Source: Cyanidioschyzon merolae (lineage: Eukaryota). Taken from it: a stretch of DNA of 64,000 nucleotides. Below the pieces are notes generated by a model, which was not told the origin of the DNA, searched no databases, and saw nothing but the letters and a program-made list of their open reading frames with translations. The DNA lies in the NCBI GenBank assembly GCA_000091205.1, contig AP006498.2; one strand, given 5' to 3'. Positions 48,682 to 55,088 of the stretch are shown piece by piece. Position 1 is the stretch's first letter, and every line of letters starts with the position of its first letter. The position numbers and the translations under genes are program-made.

Positions 48682-50274
48682 ATGACGAAGCAGGTCTCCG
48701 CTTCGAATGCATTCGATACTGTATTGACGGCAGCACGTTCTGCAAAGAAGGAATCACCGCAAACTGACTCGTCAGCTTTGCAAGAGAAACACCGTAGAAA
48801 GCCTCGTGCTGACAAACGCTCTATCAAGCAGGAGCACACCCCTCTGGATACGGTTTCGTCATCTGATTCCGCGGCTCCCTACTGTTTGGAAAGTGTACCG
48901 CGGAATTCGAGCGATGGCGCACCGGGTTTGCAGCCAAACGGTTTATGTAATGTTGCGTCCTGGAAGAACATACAACCGCTTCGAACGTACGTGCACCAGG
49001 GCGCAGTCCACTGCCTTGTCATGAGCCCGTCGGGGAGCGTGCTGCTCTCGGCGTCGACTCGTGGCTCACTCTGCCTCTGGGATGCGCAAGTTGGCGACCA
49101 CATTCAGCTTCGGGAACTGCGCGATACCCGAGAACATGTCTTTAATCGATATATCGAAGAATATCTGACAGCTCGCTTTACCCCCGATGAACGGTATGTG
49201 GTCGCCGCCGGAACCCGACGAGATCGCCACCTTTGGGACTTTGACGAGTCTGATTGCAAGGTGGTGCCGCCTGCAATCAAAATATTCGATGTTGTGAGTG
49301 GCGAGGTCCTAGCCGACCTAGAGGGTCACCTAGAAGAAGTCTTCTGTGTCCAAATATATCGCGAGTTGGGCGATCATGGACCCTGGATGATGATGAGTTG
49401 CTCCCAGGACGGCACAGTCATACTCTGGCGGTTTGCCGCCAACGGTACCGCTTTCAACACTGCCACCAAAGAGCGTGTCATTTCGCTGGAAGCACTGGAC
49501 GTCGAGCAGCTTGATCCAAACTATGTCTCTGGTATCTCTTTGAGCGAGCCGACTGCACGAGATGCGATTCAAGCGCTGGCACGCCAAGTAGGTGTCGCGC
49601 CCAACGAGTTGAATGGCGAGTCCTACATCGCCACCTGGTGTGCGTTGCTGCCGGCTACCGCTGCGCGCTATGCGTTGGTATCCGTCGACACTGGACTGTG
49701 TGTACTCGACCTGAAAGCCGGTCGGGTGATTGCCAAGTTCCCAGCCCTATTCACGGCGATTTGCGATTCCTTTCTCGTGCTGGATGACGTCGACGAGGCT
49801 GGTACGCGTTACTTTTCGCTAGCGGTCCATGGCGTAGAAGCGCTCTCCGGCGACGGGCGCAATGCCGAACAGATTCGCCCCGATCGATGTTTGCTCTGTC
49901 GTCTGTACGTTCCAATGAAAGACGGTGATCAGTGGCGTCTGATCACGGAGCAAGAGCTCAGTCATTCAACGAAATACGTTTCCAATGTCTGGCCCTCTCG
50001 AATCAGTGCAGCTGCGGGGCAATGGGTTGCAGCGGGAACAGAGCACGGCACGGTTTGTGTTTGGGATCTCACAAACCGTGGCCAACATCTGCTGACCCTC
50101 GTGGGCTCGCACGACAATCAAAGCTGTGTGCGGGACCTTATCGTTCATCCAACACGGCCATGGCTCTATAGCGCTGCTGATGACGGTACCATTCAGGTTT
50201 GGGCGGTGCCTTCTCCGGCGGACGCCGGGGACCCGCATGCGCCTACCTCGAATGGCATGTGTGGAAGCATATAG
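48682..50274 (+). CDS. WD40-repeat protein
   Basis: 530-aa ORF; repeated WD-like blades (LSASTRGSLCLWDAQ, VVAAGTRRDRHLWDF, MMSCSQDGTVILWRF, AAGTEHGTVCVWDL, SAADDGTIQVWAV). Confidence 0.6.
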   Translation: MTKQVSASNAFDTVLTAARSAKKESPQTDSSALQEKHRRKPRADKRSIKQEHTPLDTVSSSDSAAPYCLESVPRNSSDGAPGLQPNGLCNVASWKNIQPLRTYVHQGAVHCLVMSPSGSVLLSASTRGSLCLWDAQVGDHIQLRELRDTREHVFNRYIEEYLTARFTPDERYVVAAGTRRDRHLWDFDESDCKVVPPAIKIFDVVSGEVLADLEGHLEEVFCVQIYRELGDHGPWMMMSCSQDGTVILWRFAANGTAFNTATKERVISLEALDVEQLDPNYVSGISLSEPTARDAIQALARQVGVAPNELNGESYIATWCALLPATAARYALVSVDTGLCVLDLKAGRVIAKFPALFTAICDSFLVLDDVDEAGTRYFSLAVHGVEALSGDGRNAEQIRPDRCLLCRLYVPMKDGDQWRLITEQELSHSTKYVSNVWPSRISAAAGQWVAAGTEHGTVCVWDLTNRGQHLLTLVGSHDNQSCVRDLIVHPTRPWLYSAADDGTIQVWAVPSPADAGDPHAPTSNGMCGSI

Positions 50275-51575: not shown

Positions 51576-53222
51576 TCAAAGCATTTCTCTGAGCCGCCGC
51601 ATACGACGCGCCAGCACCACGTGCGGTTCATCTGGTTCCACCGGAAGCACCGGAAATGGCTGGCCTCGAGCACGATCCACAATCAGTGCGTTTGCCGCCT
51701 CAAGACCCGTCACATAGGCCTTCTCCTGCGAAAATGAACCGTGCCTGGTATCGATCCAGTCGCCCGCAAAGTAGACATTATTTTGAAGGCCTGCATCCGT
51801 GGCGCGAACTTGTGGAAAGTGTCTGTAAGAGCCCGGCCGAAAGTGCGTCACAGCTCTGGGTGCACGAACCACAGTCGAGTCTATGACGCGAGCTTCGTTC
51901 ATGGCAGAAGCAATGCACTTGCGCAGAATCCGGTCACAGTGCTCCACAATCGAGTCATTATCCCAGACCAAGAGCGACGATGCGCCGTACAAATCCATTT
52001 CAATGACCTCACCAGGTGCATCACCAAATGACTCATCGTGAAGCGCATTCAGATCGAAAAAGGTGCCACCGATATCAGCATCAAAGCCGAAAAATGCATT
52101 ACTCGGACGGTGGAGACGCATTCGGCGATCATAGTACAAGCGTACTGCAAGAACATCTACACTTCCCAAATGCATGAAGCGGCGAAACTGACTCGAGTGT
52201 TTCGCGAGCGCTGCCGACTGCCGTACGAGCGCCTGGGCCCCGGAGATACCCACTGCGAAGATGACGGCATCAACGGGCAGGCGTTCTGGACTATTGCCCC
52301 CGTCCTGCAGCATGAGAGCGTCAACATGGCCTCTGGTTGGATGCAGATCAACGTCGACTACGCGGGTGCCTAGGCGCAGGTCGAGGCCGCGCTGTTGCGT
52401 CATGACTTGTAGCCAGGGTTCGAATACGCGCTCTGCTGTGGTGCCACGGACCCATTTCACGTCAAAGTCACTTTGGTGCGCGAGAATGAAATAATAGAGC
52501 ATACCCAGCGCACCGCTCGCAGAGCACAGCTCACTCGGCGCAAACAAGCCTACCAGTAGCATCGGTTCGAACGCGTTTGTGATGAGACGTTCACTACAGC
52601 CGTAGCGGGTGAAAAGCTCTCGTGCCGTCATCTGGTCATATTTTCTCCATGCTTCTGGCGAGTTGTCAAAGTCTGCCACGGCGTCGAAGAGCGCGAACGC
52701 TGAAAGTCGATCCATCCACGGCAAGCGATAGAAGCGCGGATATATCATGGTGCCGAGTGGGCTCGGTAGTCGTGGCAGCTCGCTAAAGAGCGGCGACTCT
52801 GCTTCCAAACCGGCTGGCGAGTACTGGGCGCTACGGGTGAATCGCGTGAAAGGGTCTGCGTCTCCTGCTAGCCTCAACTGACGATAGACCAGGTCGAAGA
52901 TATTTACATAAGGCTTCCAGAAACCGTGGACGCCAACCTCTACCGGCCTGTTTTCACGCTGAACCCAGCCAGCGGCAAGGCCCCCGATGGATTCACGGCT
53001 CTCGATGAGCGTCACGTGGAAAGCCTCGCGGTTCCGTGGAGAGCTCGTAAGCGCATGGGCAGCGCCGAGTCCAGCCCAGCCCCCGCCGACGATCGCGACC
53101 CGCAGCGGTCTTGTTCTCGATTCAGGGTCCGCGCTTGCAATGCAAGTTCGAAGGCAACGCTGGCGACTGAGGTTCTTGCAGTGACGCGACTGTCGCCTGG
53201 TTGGAAGCGCGCTCTGAAACAT
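51576..53222 (-). CDS. FAD-dependent oxidoreductase of the amine-oxidase / phytoene-desaturase family (carotenoid desaturase/isomerase-like), with N-terminal presequence
   Basis: VAIVGGGWAGLGAAHAL (Rossmann GxGxxG), GGLAAGWVQRENRPVEVGVHGFWKPYVNIFDLV (PDS-like GG..W....E.G.H.F...Y.N), C-terminal FAGDWIDTRHGSFSQEKAYVTGLEAANALI (PDS-family FAD tail); about 40-aa Arg/Ser-rich N-terminus. Confidence 0.6.
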   Translation of the reverse strand: MFQSALPTRRQSRHCKNLSRQRCLRTCIASADPESRTRPLRVAIVGGGWAGLGAAHALTSSPRNREAFHVTLIESRESIGGLAAGWVQRENRPVEVGVHGFWKPYVNIFDLVYRQLRLAGDADPFTRFTRSAQYSPAGLEAESPLFSELPRLPSPLGTMIYPRFYRLPWMDRLSAFALFDAVADFDNSPEAWRKYDQMTARELFTRYGCSERLITNAFEPMLLVGLFAPSELCSASGALGMLYYFILAHQSDFDVKWVRGTTAERVFEPWLQVMTQQRGLDLRLGTRVVDVDLHPTRGHVDALMLQDGGNSPERLPVDAVIFAVGISGAQALVRQSAALAKHSSQFRRFMHLGSVDVLAVRLYYDRRMRLHRPSNAFFGFDADIGGTFFDLNALHDESFGDAPGEVIEMDLYGASSLLVWDNDSIVEHCDRILRKCIASAMNEARVIDSTVVRAPRAVTHFRPGSYRHFPQVRATDAGLQNNVYFAGDWIDTRHGSFSQEKAYVTGLEAANALIVDRARGQPFPVLPVEPDEPHVVLARRMRRLREML

Positions 53223-53260
53223 GGTAAGCTGCGCGAGTGTCTTCGAACGAAAAAAGGAAA

Positions 53261-53371
53261 GCTCCGCGGCGGGGAGTCGAACCCCGGTCTCGACGGCGTT
53301 GTGAACTGCAACTGCGTCGACAACGTCGTATTCTGGCAGTTACACGAAAACCGTTCGTTAAACTACCGCGG
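53261..53371 (-). tRNA. tRNA-Asp(GTC)-like gene, 111 nt: perfect acceptor stem and T-arm (B box), predicted canonical 21-nt intron after position 37 and about 17 extra nt in the D-arm
   Basis: minus strand TCCGCGG-TA-...-CGACG-TTGTCG[ACGCAGTTGCAGTTCACAACG]C-CGTCG-AGAC-CGGGGTTCGACTCCCCG-CCGCGGA-G; 7/7 acceptor pairing, T-stem CGGGG/CCCCG with loop TTCGACT, anticodon stem CGACG/CGTCG, mature loop TTGTCGC (U33, anticodon GTC, purine 37), G73; D-arm not resolved. Confidence 0.5.
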
Positions 53372-55088
53372 ATGGAGGAATATGATGATGTGAATGACCG
53401 ATCACAATTGATATATAAATGCATTGGCGGGTGATGCGCGTTGGCGACATCGCGGCAGCCGAGGCAGCTGGCACCGACCGCGTTGTGACGCAGGCGTTCG
53501 TGATCGCGCTGCGCAGCGGTCTAGTGCGGGCGACTTCCTGAAGTCGTGCTTCCGGTCTCCCGGGTACGACACTGCACCCATCGGGCCGGTTTGCTGTGAG
53601 AGCGCAGCTCTGGACACGGTGGACCGTGGAAATCATCCGAGAAATGGGTACGTTTGAAACCTAAGTGACTGAGAGTGCTCGCAATCGCACGAAATCCCTG
53701 TTAGATCCATCGATCATGTGGGGAGGAATTCCCTCAGTCATTCGAGACTGGGCGGCATCCGCGGTGCGTTCCACCAGCGCAGCGCTATCGGGCTTTCGCA
53801 CGAGTCGACGCGCTCAGCTTCTGCATAACCGGTTTTTCTTGGAGTTGAATCACTTGAACGAACTGGGATTCCCCGGGTATGCCATTTGTGTTGGAAACCT
53901 GTGAAGAGACCGGGTTGCCTTTGAGGCATCTCAACGTTCCGCAGGTCGCATACCAGTGCATCCATCGGGATCTGCGCCTAGACTGATCTAGCGCTTTCCC
54001 TCGTATGCTGAGTCTGTATCCGAAACTGGCTGTGGCGCCAGCATTTTTCTTTTTTGTTTCACAGAAAGCTAACTTAGAGCAGATATGCCTGCGATGACGC
54101 TATCTCATACCCGCACCCAGAAAAGCGTCCGCCACGTATCCAAGCACCGCTTCCCATATTTGCCCGCGAAGATACACATCATTTCCTCCGTTCCACTCTG
54201 TGGCGAGTCTGTCGTGATCCCCATCAATGACACCTATCGCGCCGGTGTGCATGCAGCAAGGATACGAGACGCGTTTACCGTAACACTACGAGCGTCTGCT
54301 CGAGATCTCCGCTCCATAACGAATCATGATAATGATGATATATGTCAGTCAAACGAAAGCGTTTCACGACCGTTGCTAACGAATATATCCCCAAACGCGC
54401 AAACGGCTCCCAGCCTTTTTCGCCCGATCGACTGGTATCGTTTTCAGATTTTATCCCTGCAGAGTTCGAGCCTGAAAGACCGCCCTATAAAGTTCGCTCG
54501 CCTCAGCTCCCCAGGTCTGATCATTAGCACCACACATCGTCTGATGCTGTGTGAAGTCTTGGTTCGGGAACTCCATGCGTATATTCCCGCATGTTGAACT
54601 CATGTTTGCAAGAATTGCTCGAACACGTACCCTCTGTGTCACAAGAATCTTGTCATCGCCCCGTGGGGCAAATACCTTCTATCGTCTATCTCTCCATATT
54701 TTTTTATTCTGATTCTTCGTTCGAAAGTCGGCGAGATGAGGGTTTTTTTTCGTTTTTCCGGCAGCTGGTGATCACGTCCCCGCAGGATCCTCGCCTTTTC
54801 CGTCCATACATTTCCCTCGGATTTTTATTTCTTCGAATCAGCGCACGTCATACATACTTCCTATGAAAAGTAAAAAAGCATTTGATGACACTTACCTGGT
54901 TATGGAACACCCTTTAGTTGAGGCATTACCATCATGGTACACTTGTCAGGAAACAATGCCCCTGTCTCATGCAAATGCAGACGCCTATTGCGCGTCGAAT
55001 CTGCGTCTGCGACTGCTGCGTCGATTGCGCAGTTTTCGAACACGAGCGCTCGCCCCCAGTGCCTCTATTCGAGCGTTAAACTCGGGTT

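What the first reader, a model, noticed from the sequence alone, without database searches (positions are those of the whole stretch)
53261..53371. tRNA-Asp(GTC)-like gene of 111 nt: canonical anticodon-loop intron plus unexplained extra sequence in the D-arm
Seen in sequence (minus strand): 7/7 complementary acceptor stem TCCGCGG/CCGCGGA with G73; textbook T-arm CGGGG-TTCGACT-CCCCG (B box GGTTCGACTCC); variable loop AGAC; anticodon stem CGACG/CGTCG enclosing 28 nt. If the 21 nt ACGCAGTTGCAGTTCACAACG after position 37 are an intron, the mature loop is TTGTCGC (U33, anticodon GUC, purine 37). The T-arm, variable loop and discriminator all match eukaryotic tRNA-Asp. The D-arm region is 34 nt (normal 15-17) and contains a CGAA-CGGTT-TTCG hairpin, suggesting a second intron at a non-canonical position or a degenerate gene. 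Established knowledge: some intron-poor algae, notably Cyanidioschyzon, have tRNA genes with multiple and non-canonical introns and permuted halves. The gene sits 39 nt upstream of the PDS-family ORF on the same strand.
Basis: partly seen in the sequence, partly recalled or inferred. Interest (0 to 1): 0.55.

Follow-up and report, generated by a model that had tools for sequence, protein, structure and literature searches.

The report
Two-intron tRNA-Asp gene, red alga
This is a working aspartate tRNA gene of the hot-spring red alga Cyanidioschyzon merolae that is interrupted by two short introns, one in the usual place and one in the D-loop; this kind of gene was already described for this genome in 2013.

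Summary
The window is Cyanidioschyzon merolae 10D nuclear DNA: two ORFs are exact matches to BAM81889/BAM81890.

Removing 18 nt from the D-loop (53355-53338) and 21 nt at position 37/38 (53317-53297) leaves a 72-nt RNA. ARAGORN calls it tRNA-Asp(GTC) with a normal cloverleaf.

The 37/38 intron sits in a good bulge-helix-bulge motif: central helix TTGT/ACAA paired 4/4, with two 3-nt bulges. The D-loop intron fits only a relaxed motif, and its exact ends are inferred, mainly from restoring G18G19.

Syntenic orthologues exist in Cyanidiococcus and in two metagenomic relatives, and all carry both insertions. Exons are 71/72 identical, whereas intron 2 is 12-14/21 identical and flanks about 55-60%. 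The most distant relative has two compensatory stem changes. All have an upstream TATA-like box and a downstream T-run.

This is the class reported by Soma et al. [quoted passage not shown] I therefore rate it already known and of low interest.

The parts
53262..53372 (-). Whole tRNA-Asp(GUC) gene: 111 nt, three exons and two introns, position 1 through discriminator G73
   Evidence: Sequence read. The spliced product is called tRNA-Asp(gtc), 72 nt, by ARAGORN.
53356..53372 (-). Exon 1 (g1-17) TCCGCGGTAGTTTAACG: acceptor 5' strand, U8 A9, D-stem 5' strand GTTT, D-loop A14 A15 C16 G18
   Evidence: Identical in Cyanidiococcus (L004) and in L005.
53338..53355 (-). Intron 1 (g18-35) AACGGTTTTCGTGTAACT: 18 nt in the D-loop between G18 and G19. 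Boundaries are inferred.
   Evidence: In a constrained enumeration this is the only excision that restores GG in an 8-nt D-loop, and it ranks top for bulge-helix-bulge fit in four of five sequences. Central helix: T12:A33, T13:A32, A14:T31, A15xG30. Helix h': A19:T29, C20:G28, G21:C27. Bulges: CG|A and CT|G. All differences among Cmer, L009, L004 and L005 fall in the loop g22-25.
53318..53337 (-). Exon 2 (g36-55) GCCAGAATACGACGTTGTCG: G19 to A21, D-stem 3' strand GAAT, A26, anticodon stem 5' strand, loop U32 U33 G34 U35 C36 G37
53297..53317 (-). Intron 2 (g56-76) ACGCAGTTGCAGTTCACAACG: 21 nt at the canonical position 37/38
   Evidence: Central helix TTGT (53323-53320) pairs with ACAA (53302-53299) 4/4. 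Helix h is the 5-bp anticodon stem. Bulges are CG|A and CG|C. There is no h'. The 3' part TTCACAACG is invariant in L004 and L005, while the 5' part varies so that the intron is 12-21 nt long.
53262..53296 (-). Exon 3 (g77-111) CCGTCGAGACCGGGGTTCGACTCCCCGCCGCGGAG: C38, anticodon stem 3' strand, variable loop AGAC, T-arm, acceptor 3' strand, G73
   Evidence: It holds the only GGTTCRANYCC match in the 64-kb window.
53411..53419 (-). TATA-like element TTTATATAT, 47 to 39 nt upstream of position 1; putative RNA polymerase III promoter
   Evidence: TTTATATA occurs 37-47 nt upstream of the gene in all four lineages although the rest of the upstream sequence has diverged. Soma et al. 2013 (PMC3728597) describe TATA-like promoters for C. 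merolae tRNA genes.
53250..53261 (-). Trailer CTTTCCTTTTTT with a run of 6 T (53255-53250); putative RNA polymerase III terminator
   Evidence: A T-run follows the gene in all orthologues. It is 7 T in the metagenome strains. T-stretch terminators are described in PMC3728597.

Best explanation
This is the nuclear gene for cytosolic tRNA-Asp(GUC) of Cyanidioschyzon merolae 10D, interrupted by two protein-spliced introns.

Inferred pathway: RNA polymerase III starts downstream of the TATA-like box (about -47) and stops at the T-run, giving a linear precursor. [quoted passage not shown] By analogy with tRNA-Phe and tRNA-Ile in this organism, the D-loop intron is probably removed before the 37/38 intron. 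A ligase joins the exons, the ends are trimmed and CCA is added.

The product is a 72-nt tRNA, UCCGCGGUAGUUUAACGGCCAGAAUACGACGUUGUCGCCGUCGAGACCGGGGUUCGACUCCCCGCCGCGGAG. It has G73, GUC, C38 and a G10-U25 pair.

Shown here: the organism, the exon/intron layout at the 37/38 site, the cloverleaf after in-silico splicing, and conservation and synteny.

Inferred: the exact ends of the D-loop intron (G18|G19), transcription, splicing order and aminoacylation.
For: Organism: ORFs 51576-53222(-) and 48682-50274(+) are exact matches to BAM81890.1 and BAM81889.1 of C. merolae 10D.

Spliced product: ARAGORN calls it tRNA-Asp(gtc) with a standard cloverleaf and an 8-nt D-loop AACGGCCA. It aligns without gaps to yeast (55/72) and human (50/72) tRNA-Asp sequences recalled from memory.

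Intron 2: central helix paired 4/4, two 3-nt bulges, 5-bp helix h. This matches the geometry in PMC4090602, in which the first two anticodon bases pair with the intron within the 4-bp helix.

Intron 1: the best bulge-helix-bulge candidate among excisions leaving a 7-11-nt D-loop, and the only one restoring GG at the right spacing, in Cmer, L009, L004 and L005.

Orthologues upstream of the same PDS-like gene: Cyanidiococcus yangmingshanensis (L004), L005/L006 and L007. Exons are 71/72 identical, against 12-14/21 for intron 2 and about 55-60% for flanks. In L007, exons are 61/72 and the introns are 22 and 60 nt.

Structure: 100% of stem cells are paired, with compensatory changes at the pair G7:C66 (GC to AU) and at a T-stem pair (GC to UA).

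Signals: TATA-like box and T-run in all lineages, as described for C. merolae tRNA genes.

Literature: 27 of 43 C. merolae tRNA genes have introns, 14 introns are in the D-loop, 17 are at 37/38, and nine genes have two introns.
Against: - No expression or splicing data for this gene could be examined.
- The D-loop motif is weak. The central helix is 3/4 paired and helix h is absent. The modelled structure is about 1.5 kcal/mol less stable than leaving the region open (-24.1 against -25.6). The minimum-free-energy fold of the D region is a different hairpin with a 2x2 internal loop that puts no junction in a bulge.
- In L007, the homologous junction is only one of three comparable candidates.
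- In L007, the 37/38 intron pairs only 2/4 in the central helix, by my reading of the sequence.
- ARAGORN accepts thousands of alternative deletions as tRNA-Asp, so it cannot fix the intron ends.
- With three distinct sequences the covariation statistics are weak: 46 of 500 shuffles reach the observed value.
- The text of Soma et al. 2013 does not name Asp. The figure and supplement that would list it were not available.
Confidence: 0.9

Rival explanations
1. Same gene and same two introns, but the D-loop intron is cut in a different register: removal of g16-33, or the equivalent g14-31 to g17-34. The mature D-loop would then be AACUGCCA, with U in place of G18 or G19.
For: Excision g16-33 scores as a bulge-helix-bulge-like motif: central helix 3/4 (all G-U wobbles), helix h 4 bp, helix h' 2-3 bp. 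ARAGORN also accepts this product as tRNA-Asp.
Against: - It removes the near-universal G18G19 needed to pair with the T-loop (established tRNA knowledge), although C56 is present.
- Its helix h takes G6 and G7 out of the acceptor stem.
- The modelled structure is about 10 kcal/mol worse (-14.6 against -24.1).
- The homologous excisions in L007 pair 1/4 (g16-37) and 0/4 (g17-38) in the central helix, by my own reading of the sequence. The g16-37 register is absent from the ten best candidates that one search lists for L007.
- A19:T25 is broken in L005 and L009.
Confidence: 0.07
2. A decaying tRNA pseudogene whose D-arm has been damaged by an insertion. The cell's tRNA-Asp would come from another locus.
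For: tRNA detectors fail on the genomic sequence. The D-loop motif is thermodynamically weak.
Against: - Exons are 71/72 identical to Cyanidiococcus while flanks are about 55-60% identical.
- Both insertions, the TATA-like box and the T-run are kept in four lineages.
- L007 has compensatory stem changes.
- The genome has only 43 tRNA genes that just cover the code (PMC3728597), so a spare Asp gene is unlikely.
Confidence: 0.02
3. Only the 37/38 intron is removed, and the extra 18 nt stay in the mature tRNA as an oversized 26-nt D-loop.
For: No direct evidence that the 18 nt are removed was available.
Against: - No cytosolic tRNA with such a D-loop is known (established knowledge).
- The segment differs in length and sequence in L007 (22 nt), while the flanking D-loop bases converge on ARYGGCYA.
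- D-loop introns are the commonest ectopic class in this genome, 14 of 42 introns.
Confidence: 0.01

Closest known systems
Multi-intron ("highly disrupted") nuclear tRNA genes of Cyanidioschyzon merolae 10D (Soma et al. 2013, Sci Rep 3:2321, PMC3728597), e.g. tRNA-Phe(GAA) with a D-arm intron plus a 37/38 intron
   Same: - Same genome.
- Colinear exons interrupted by short introns (18 and 21 nt, within the reported 11-69 nt range).
- One ectopic intron in the D-arm plus one at 37/38.
- Relaxed bulge-helix-bulge motifs at the junctions.
- Upstream TATA-like sequence and downstream T-stretch.
   Different: Nothing of kind. The D-arm intron here lies in the D-loop (inferred between G18 and G19) rather than in the D-stem as in tRNA-Phe and tRNA-Ile (12/13). 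I could not see the figure that lists each gene, so I cannot say whether the published intron ends for Asp match mine.
Archaeal tRNA genes with multiple or non-canonical introns (Crenarchaeota, Nanoarchaeota; strict hBHBh' motif, i.e. the bulge-helix-bulge core flanked by helices h and h'; Marck and Grosjean 2003)
   Same: [quoted passage not shown] The junctions lie in 3-nt bulges flanking a 4-bp helix.
   Different: This is a eukaryotic nuclear gene. Neither motif is the strict hBHBh': intron 2 lacks helix h', and intron 1 lacks helix h and has one mismatch in the central helix. The enzyme is a Sen2/Sen34/Sen54-type endonuclease, not archaeal EndA.
Chondrus crispus nuclear tRNA genes with D-loop (20/21) or T-loop (58/59) introns, some also with a 37/38 intron (PlantRNA 2.0, bioRxiv 10.1101/2021.12.21.473619)
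   Same: Red-algal nuclear tRNA genes carrying a D-loop intron plus the canonical intron. tRNAscan-type tools miscall or miss them.
   Different: In C. crispus the D-loop introns are reported always at 20/21. Here, no excision at 20/21 gives a sensible D-loop.
Circularly permuted tRNA genes of C. merolae (Soma et al. 2007)
   Same: Same organism, and the same bulge-helix-bulge-dependent processing machinery.
   Different: This gene is not permuted. The 5' half precedes the 3' half, and acceptor strands 1-7 and 66-72 are in normal order.

Membership tests
C. merolae intron-disrupted nuclear tRNA genes (Soma et al. 2013) | [quoted passage not shown] | tested here: met
   Two flanking ORFs are exact matches to BAM81889.1 and BAM81890.1 of strain 10D, on a 908,485-bp record.
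C. merolae intron-disrupted nuclear tRNA genes (Soma et al. 2013) | Exons join colinearly into a canonical cloverleaf tRNA | tested here: met
   The 72-nt spliced product is called tRNA-Asp(gtc) by ARAGORN. All 21 stem pairs form in three distinct orthologues.
C. merolae intron-disrupted nuclear tRNA genes (Soma et al. 2013) | Intron-exon junctions can form a bulge-helix-bulge motif or a relaxed variant (types hBH, HBh', or lacking the central helix) | tested here: met
   Intron 2: central helix 4/4, both 3-nt bulges, helix h 5 bp, no h'. Intron 1: central helix 3/4, helix h' 3-4 bp, both bulges, no h. It is weak in energy terms but within the range the paper reports, -11.1 to +1.15 kcal/mol.
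C. merolae intron-disrupted nuclear tRNA genes (Soma et al. 2013) | Upstream TATA-like sequence and downstream T-stretch | tested here: met
   TTTATATAT at 53419-53411 and a T-run at 53255-53250. Both are kept in all orthologues.
C. merolae intron-disrupted nuclear tRNA genes (Soma et al. 2013) | Precursor is transcribed and both introns are removed in vivo | not testable with these tools
   No RNA data were available. The paper's per-gene figure and supplement are not held.
Canonical eukaryotic tRNA intron | [quoted passage not shown] | tested here: met
   Intron 2 follows G37. T32 pairs with intron A(-3), as part of TTGT/ACAA.
Strict archaeal hBHBh' motif | 4-bp central helix, two 3-nt bulges, and flanking helices h and h' of at least 2 bp each | tested here: not met
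   Intron 2 has h' = 0. Intron 1 has h = 0 and one mismatch in the central helix.
tRNA-Asp identity (yeast AspRS determinants, recalled from Putz et al. 1991) | G73, G34, U35, C36, C38 and the G10-U25 pair | tested here: met
   All are present in the spliced product. C38 depends on the 37/38 splice site as modelled. Aminoacylation itself was not tested.
Circularly permuted tRNA gene | The 3' half is encoded upstream of the 5' half | tested here: not met
   The gene order is colinear.
Group I intron in a tRNA gene | A self-splicing intron of hundreds of nucleotides with a P1-P9 core | tested here: not met
   The introns are 18 and 21 nt. There was no Rfam intron hit.

The most novel reading that the evidence does not exclude
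The two-intron layout of tRNA-Asp may be ancient and under selection. That would include an ectopic intron splitting the near-universal G18G19 pair of bases. The layout is shared by Cyanidioschyzon, Cyanidiococcus and a 67.5%-GC relative known only from a metagenome. Almost every base of the 18-nt D-loop intron is constrained.

The gene has also stayed 37-44 nt upstream of the start codon of the same PDS-like gene in all four. This hints at a functional coupling between the tRNA gene and expression of its neighbour. The 2013 paper, as far as its text shows, did not make cross-species comparisons.
Probability: 0.3. Interest if true: 0.35.

Novelty: already known. Interest (0 to 1): 0.15.

Why it matters
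The finding shows that a careful reading of raw sequence can recover a tRNA gene that ARAGORN and Rfam both miss. The biology, however, is established. C. merolae was shown in 2013 to have ectopic and multiple tRNA introns in 27 of its 43 nuclear tRNA genes, spliced through bulge-helix-bulge motifs.

The small additions here are comparative. The same two insertions are kept in Cyanidiococcus and in two metagenomic relatives. Variation is confined to the intron loops. The gene is tightly and stably linked to the PDS-like gene downstream.

These data give a natural set of sequences for asking which intron bases the C. merolae endonuclease needs. That is of modest use to people working on tRNA splicing.

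Tried and rejected
- **ARAGORN, default and intron mode:** nothing found. At lowered thresholds (-ps90, -ps80) it gave a spurious tRNA-Ala(tgc) with a 28-nt "intron" over the same span. I rejected this because it mispairs the D and anticodon arms and ignores the GTC loop.
- **Rfam:** nothing at gathering threshold. At permissive threshold there were only a partial tRNA hit (13.5 bits), a mascRNA hit caused by the T-arm, and a weak sR11 hit.
- **Exhaustive in-silico splicing:** of 20,349 deletion pairs scored with ARAGORN, 2,119 were called tRNA-Asp(gtc). ARAGORN therefore cannot fix the D-loop junctions.
- **Unconstrained bulge-helix-bulge scan:** many chance hits spanning unrelated parts of the gene. 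It became useful only after requiring a 7-11-nt D-loop.
- **Free and constrained minimum-free-energy folding:** this recovers the 37/38 helix but not the intron-1 motif.
- **Metagenome pattern scan:** two true hits, both C. merolae-like strains, and three chance matches (L008, L010, L011). No spliced form was found, and no new lineage.
- **Literature:** full-text searches for Asp in the C. merolae tRNA papers and for the gene sequence itself found nothing. The supplement of Soma et al. 2013 is not held.
- **Bacterial promoter and terminator scan:** no sites, as expected for a eukaryotic polymerase III gene.

Full report
**What is there**

On the minus strand, window 53372..53262 reads TCCGCGG TA GTTT [26 nt] GAAT A CGACG [28 nt] CGTCG AGAC CGGGG TTCGACT CCCCG CCGCGGA G. 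It is followed by CTTTCCTTTTTT.

The only error is a one-base shift in the coordinates.

Standard detectors do not see the gene:
- ARAGORN found nothing, with or without its anticodon-intron option.
- Rfam found nothing at gathering threshold.
- The Rfam tRNA model reached only 13.5 bits, E = 5.7, at permissive settings.

**Where the window comes from**

The ORF at 51576-53222(-) is identical to BAM81890.1/XP_005537926.1, annotated "similar to phytoene desaturase precursor". The ORF at 48682-50274(+) is identical to BAM81889.1. Both belong to Cyanidioschyzon merolae strain 10D and lie on a record of 908,485 bp. The window has 55.4% G+C.

This is the organism in which ectopic, multiple and permuted tRNA gene structures were discovered.

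**The intron at 37/38**

- a 4-bp central helix H, flanked by two 3-nt bulges;
- an outer helix h on the exon side and an inner helix h' on the intron side.

In a precursor, the first two anticodon bases pair with the intron within H (PMC4090602). Cleavage after the second base of each bulge is recalled from established knowledge.

With that geometry, the 21 nt ACGCAGTTGCAGTTCACAACG (53317-53297) fit exactly:
- Positions 32-35 (TTGT) pair 4/4 with intron ACAA.
- The bulges are C36 G37|A and C G|C38.
- The 5-bp anticodon stem serves as helix h.
- There is no helix h'.

Removal leaves the loop UUGUCGC with anticodon GUC and C38.

In the relatives L004 and L005, the 3' part of the intron (TTCACAACG) is invariant. 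The 5' part differs in sequence, and the intron is 12 or 17 nt long. That is the pattern expected if only the pairing strand is constrained.

**The D-loop intron**

The D-stem GTTT/GAAT (G10-U25, U11-A24, U12-A23, U13-G22) encloses 26 nt instead of about 8.

ARAGORN cannot locate the intron, because it accepts thousands of different deletions as tRNA-Asp. I therefore listed every excision that leaves a 7-11-nt D-loop and scored each for BHB geometry.

In C. merolae, in a strain variant (L009), and in L004 and L005, the top candidate is removal of g18-35, AACGGTTTTCGTGTAACT (53355-53338). Its features are:
- H: T12:A33, T13:A32, A14:T31, A15xG30 (3/4).
- h': A19:T29, C20:G28, G21:C27.
- Bulges: CG|A and CT|G.
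- h: absent.

It is also the only excision that restores GG at the normal spacing. The resulting D-loop is AACGGCCA. Yeast tRNA-Asp has AAUGGUCA (sequence recalled from memory).

All differences among these four sequences fall in g22-25, the loop of h'.

The motif is weak:
- The modelled structure is about 1.5 kcal/mol less stable than leaving the region open.
- The minimum-free-energy fold is a different hairpin.
- A rival register, g16-33, gives AACUGCCA. It costs about 10 kcal/mol more, borrows acceptor-stem bases, loses G18G19, and by my reading of the sequence fails in L007. It is not among the ten best L007 candidates.

I put about 0.65 on the exact ends and about 0.9 on there being a spliced D-loop intron.

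**The spliced product**

Exons 53372-53356, 53337-53318 and 53296-53262 join to 72 nt. ARAGORN calls this tRNA-Asp(gtc) with a standard cloverleaf.

It carries G73, G34 U35 C36, C38 and G10-U25, the yeast aspartate identity set (recalled knowledge). It aligns without gaps to yeast (55/72) and human (50/72) tRNA-Asp.

**Comparative evidence**

The PDS-like gene and the WD40 gene next to it are syntenic in three further lineages:
- Cyanidiococcus yangmingshanensis (L004, GCA_026122185.1; protein 75% identical);
- a JGI metagenome lineage (L005/L006; 77%);
- an ENA metagenome contig (L007; 62%; 67.5% G+C).

Each has the same tRNA-Asp gene just upstream, with insertions at both places.

| Compared with C. 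merolae | Exons | Intron 1 | Intron 2 | Flanks |
|---|---|---|---|---|
| L004 and L005 | 71/72 | 16/18 and 14/18 | 12/21 and 14/21 | about 55-60% |
| L007 | 61/72 | 22 nt, diverged | 60 nt, diverged | about 50% |

On the spliced alignment, all 63 stem cells are paired. Two pairs show compensatory double changes in L007: GC to AU in the acceptor stem and GC to UA in the T-stem. With only three distinct sequences the shuffle control is not impressive (46 of 500).

In L007, the junction homologous to G18|G19 is one of three comparable candidates.

**Expression signals**

TTTATATA lies 37-47 nt upstream of position 1 in all four lineages, although the rest of the upstream sequence has diverged. 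A T-run follows each gene.

Soma et al. 2013 report that C. merolae has no identified TFIIIC box-binding homologues. [quoted passage not shown]

**Mechanism (inferred)**

1. Polymerase III transcribes a linear precursor.
2. The Sen2/Sen34/Sen54 endonuclease cuts both motifs. By analogy with tRNA-Phe and tRNA-Ile in this alga, the D-arm intron is removed before the 37/38 intron.
3. The exons are ligated, the ends are processed and CCA is added.

None of these steps was tested here.

**Comparison with what is known**

This matches the class described for this genome by Soma et al. 2013 (PMC3728597):
- 43 nuclear tRNA genes, just enough to read the code;
- 27 genes with introns and 42 introns of 11-69 nt;
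- 17 introns at 37/38 and 14 in the D-loop;
- nine genes with two introns;
- strict or relaxed BHB motifs.

PlantRNA 2.0 states that these non-canonical introns are annotated for C. merolae.

With about one gene per anticodon, the Asp(GUC) gene is necessarily in that set. The paper's text does not name it, and the figure and supplement are not held, so I could not compare intron ends.

The gene is not permuted, it does not carry a strict archaeal hBHBh' motif (BHB with both flanking helices), and it is not a group I intron host.

**Verdict**

The finding is already known in kind, and almost certainly as this very gene. Interest is low.

The modest new points are the cross-species conservation of both introns and the conserved 37-44-nt spacing to the start codon of the PDS-like gene.

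Noticed in passing
window 53223-53261 (-); L004, L005, L007 downstream of their tRNA-Asp genes: The tRNA-Asp 3' end lies 39 nt (window), 44 nt (L004), 40 nt (L005) and 37 nt (L007) before the first in-frame ATG of the PDS-like ORF. The spacer sequence itself is not conserved. Either the mRNA has a very short 5' UTR that starts inside the spacer, or it reads through the tRNA gene.
   Followed up: partly
L007 (ENA ERZ1300892, NODE_46, 89,891 bp): This contig keeps the tRNA-Asp / PDS-like / WD40 synteny of C. merolae but has 67.5% G+C, against about 55% for the C. merolae and Cyanidiococcus loci. Its tRNA-Asp introns are longer, at 22 and 60 nt. It appears to be an unidentified high-GC relative.
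   Followed up: no
window 53381-53435 (+): A weak match to the archaeal C/D-box family sR11 (13.4 bits, E = 4.1, well below gathering score). It overlaps the TATA-like region upstream of the tRNA gene. The region is not conserved in L004 or L005 apart from the TATA box, so this is probably chance.
   Followed up: partly
window 53250-53261 and 53228; L001-L003, L009, L012: Hot-spring metagenome and Logan contigs carry near-identical C. merolae-like strains. They have a T-run of 7 T instead of 6 and one G-to-A change in the spacer. In L009 there is also a T-to-C change in the loop of the D-loop intron, along with small upstream differences.
   Followed up: partly
window 53262-53372 (-): At lowered score thresholds (-ps90, -ps80) ARAGORN reports a spurious tRNA-Ala(tgc) with a 28-nt intron over exactly this span. 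Relaxed settings on disrupted tRNA genes can give a confidently wrong anticodon.
   Followed up: yes
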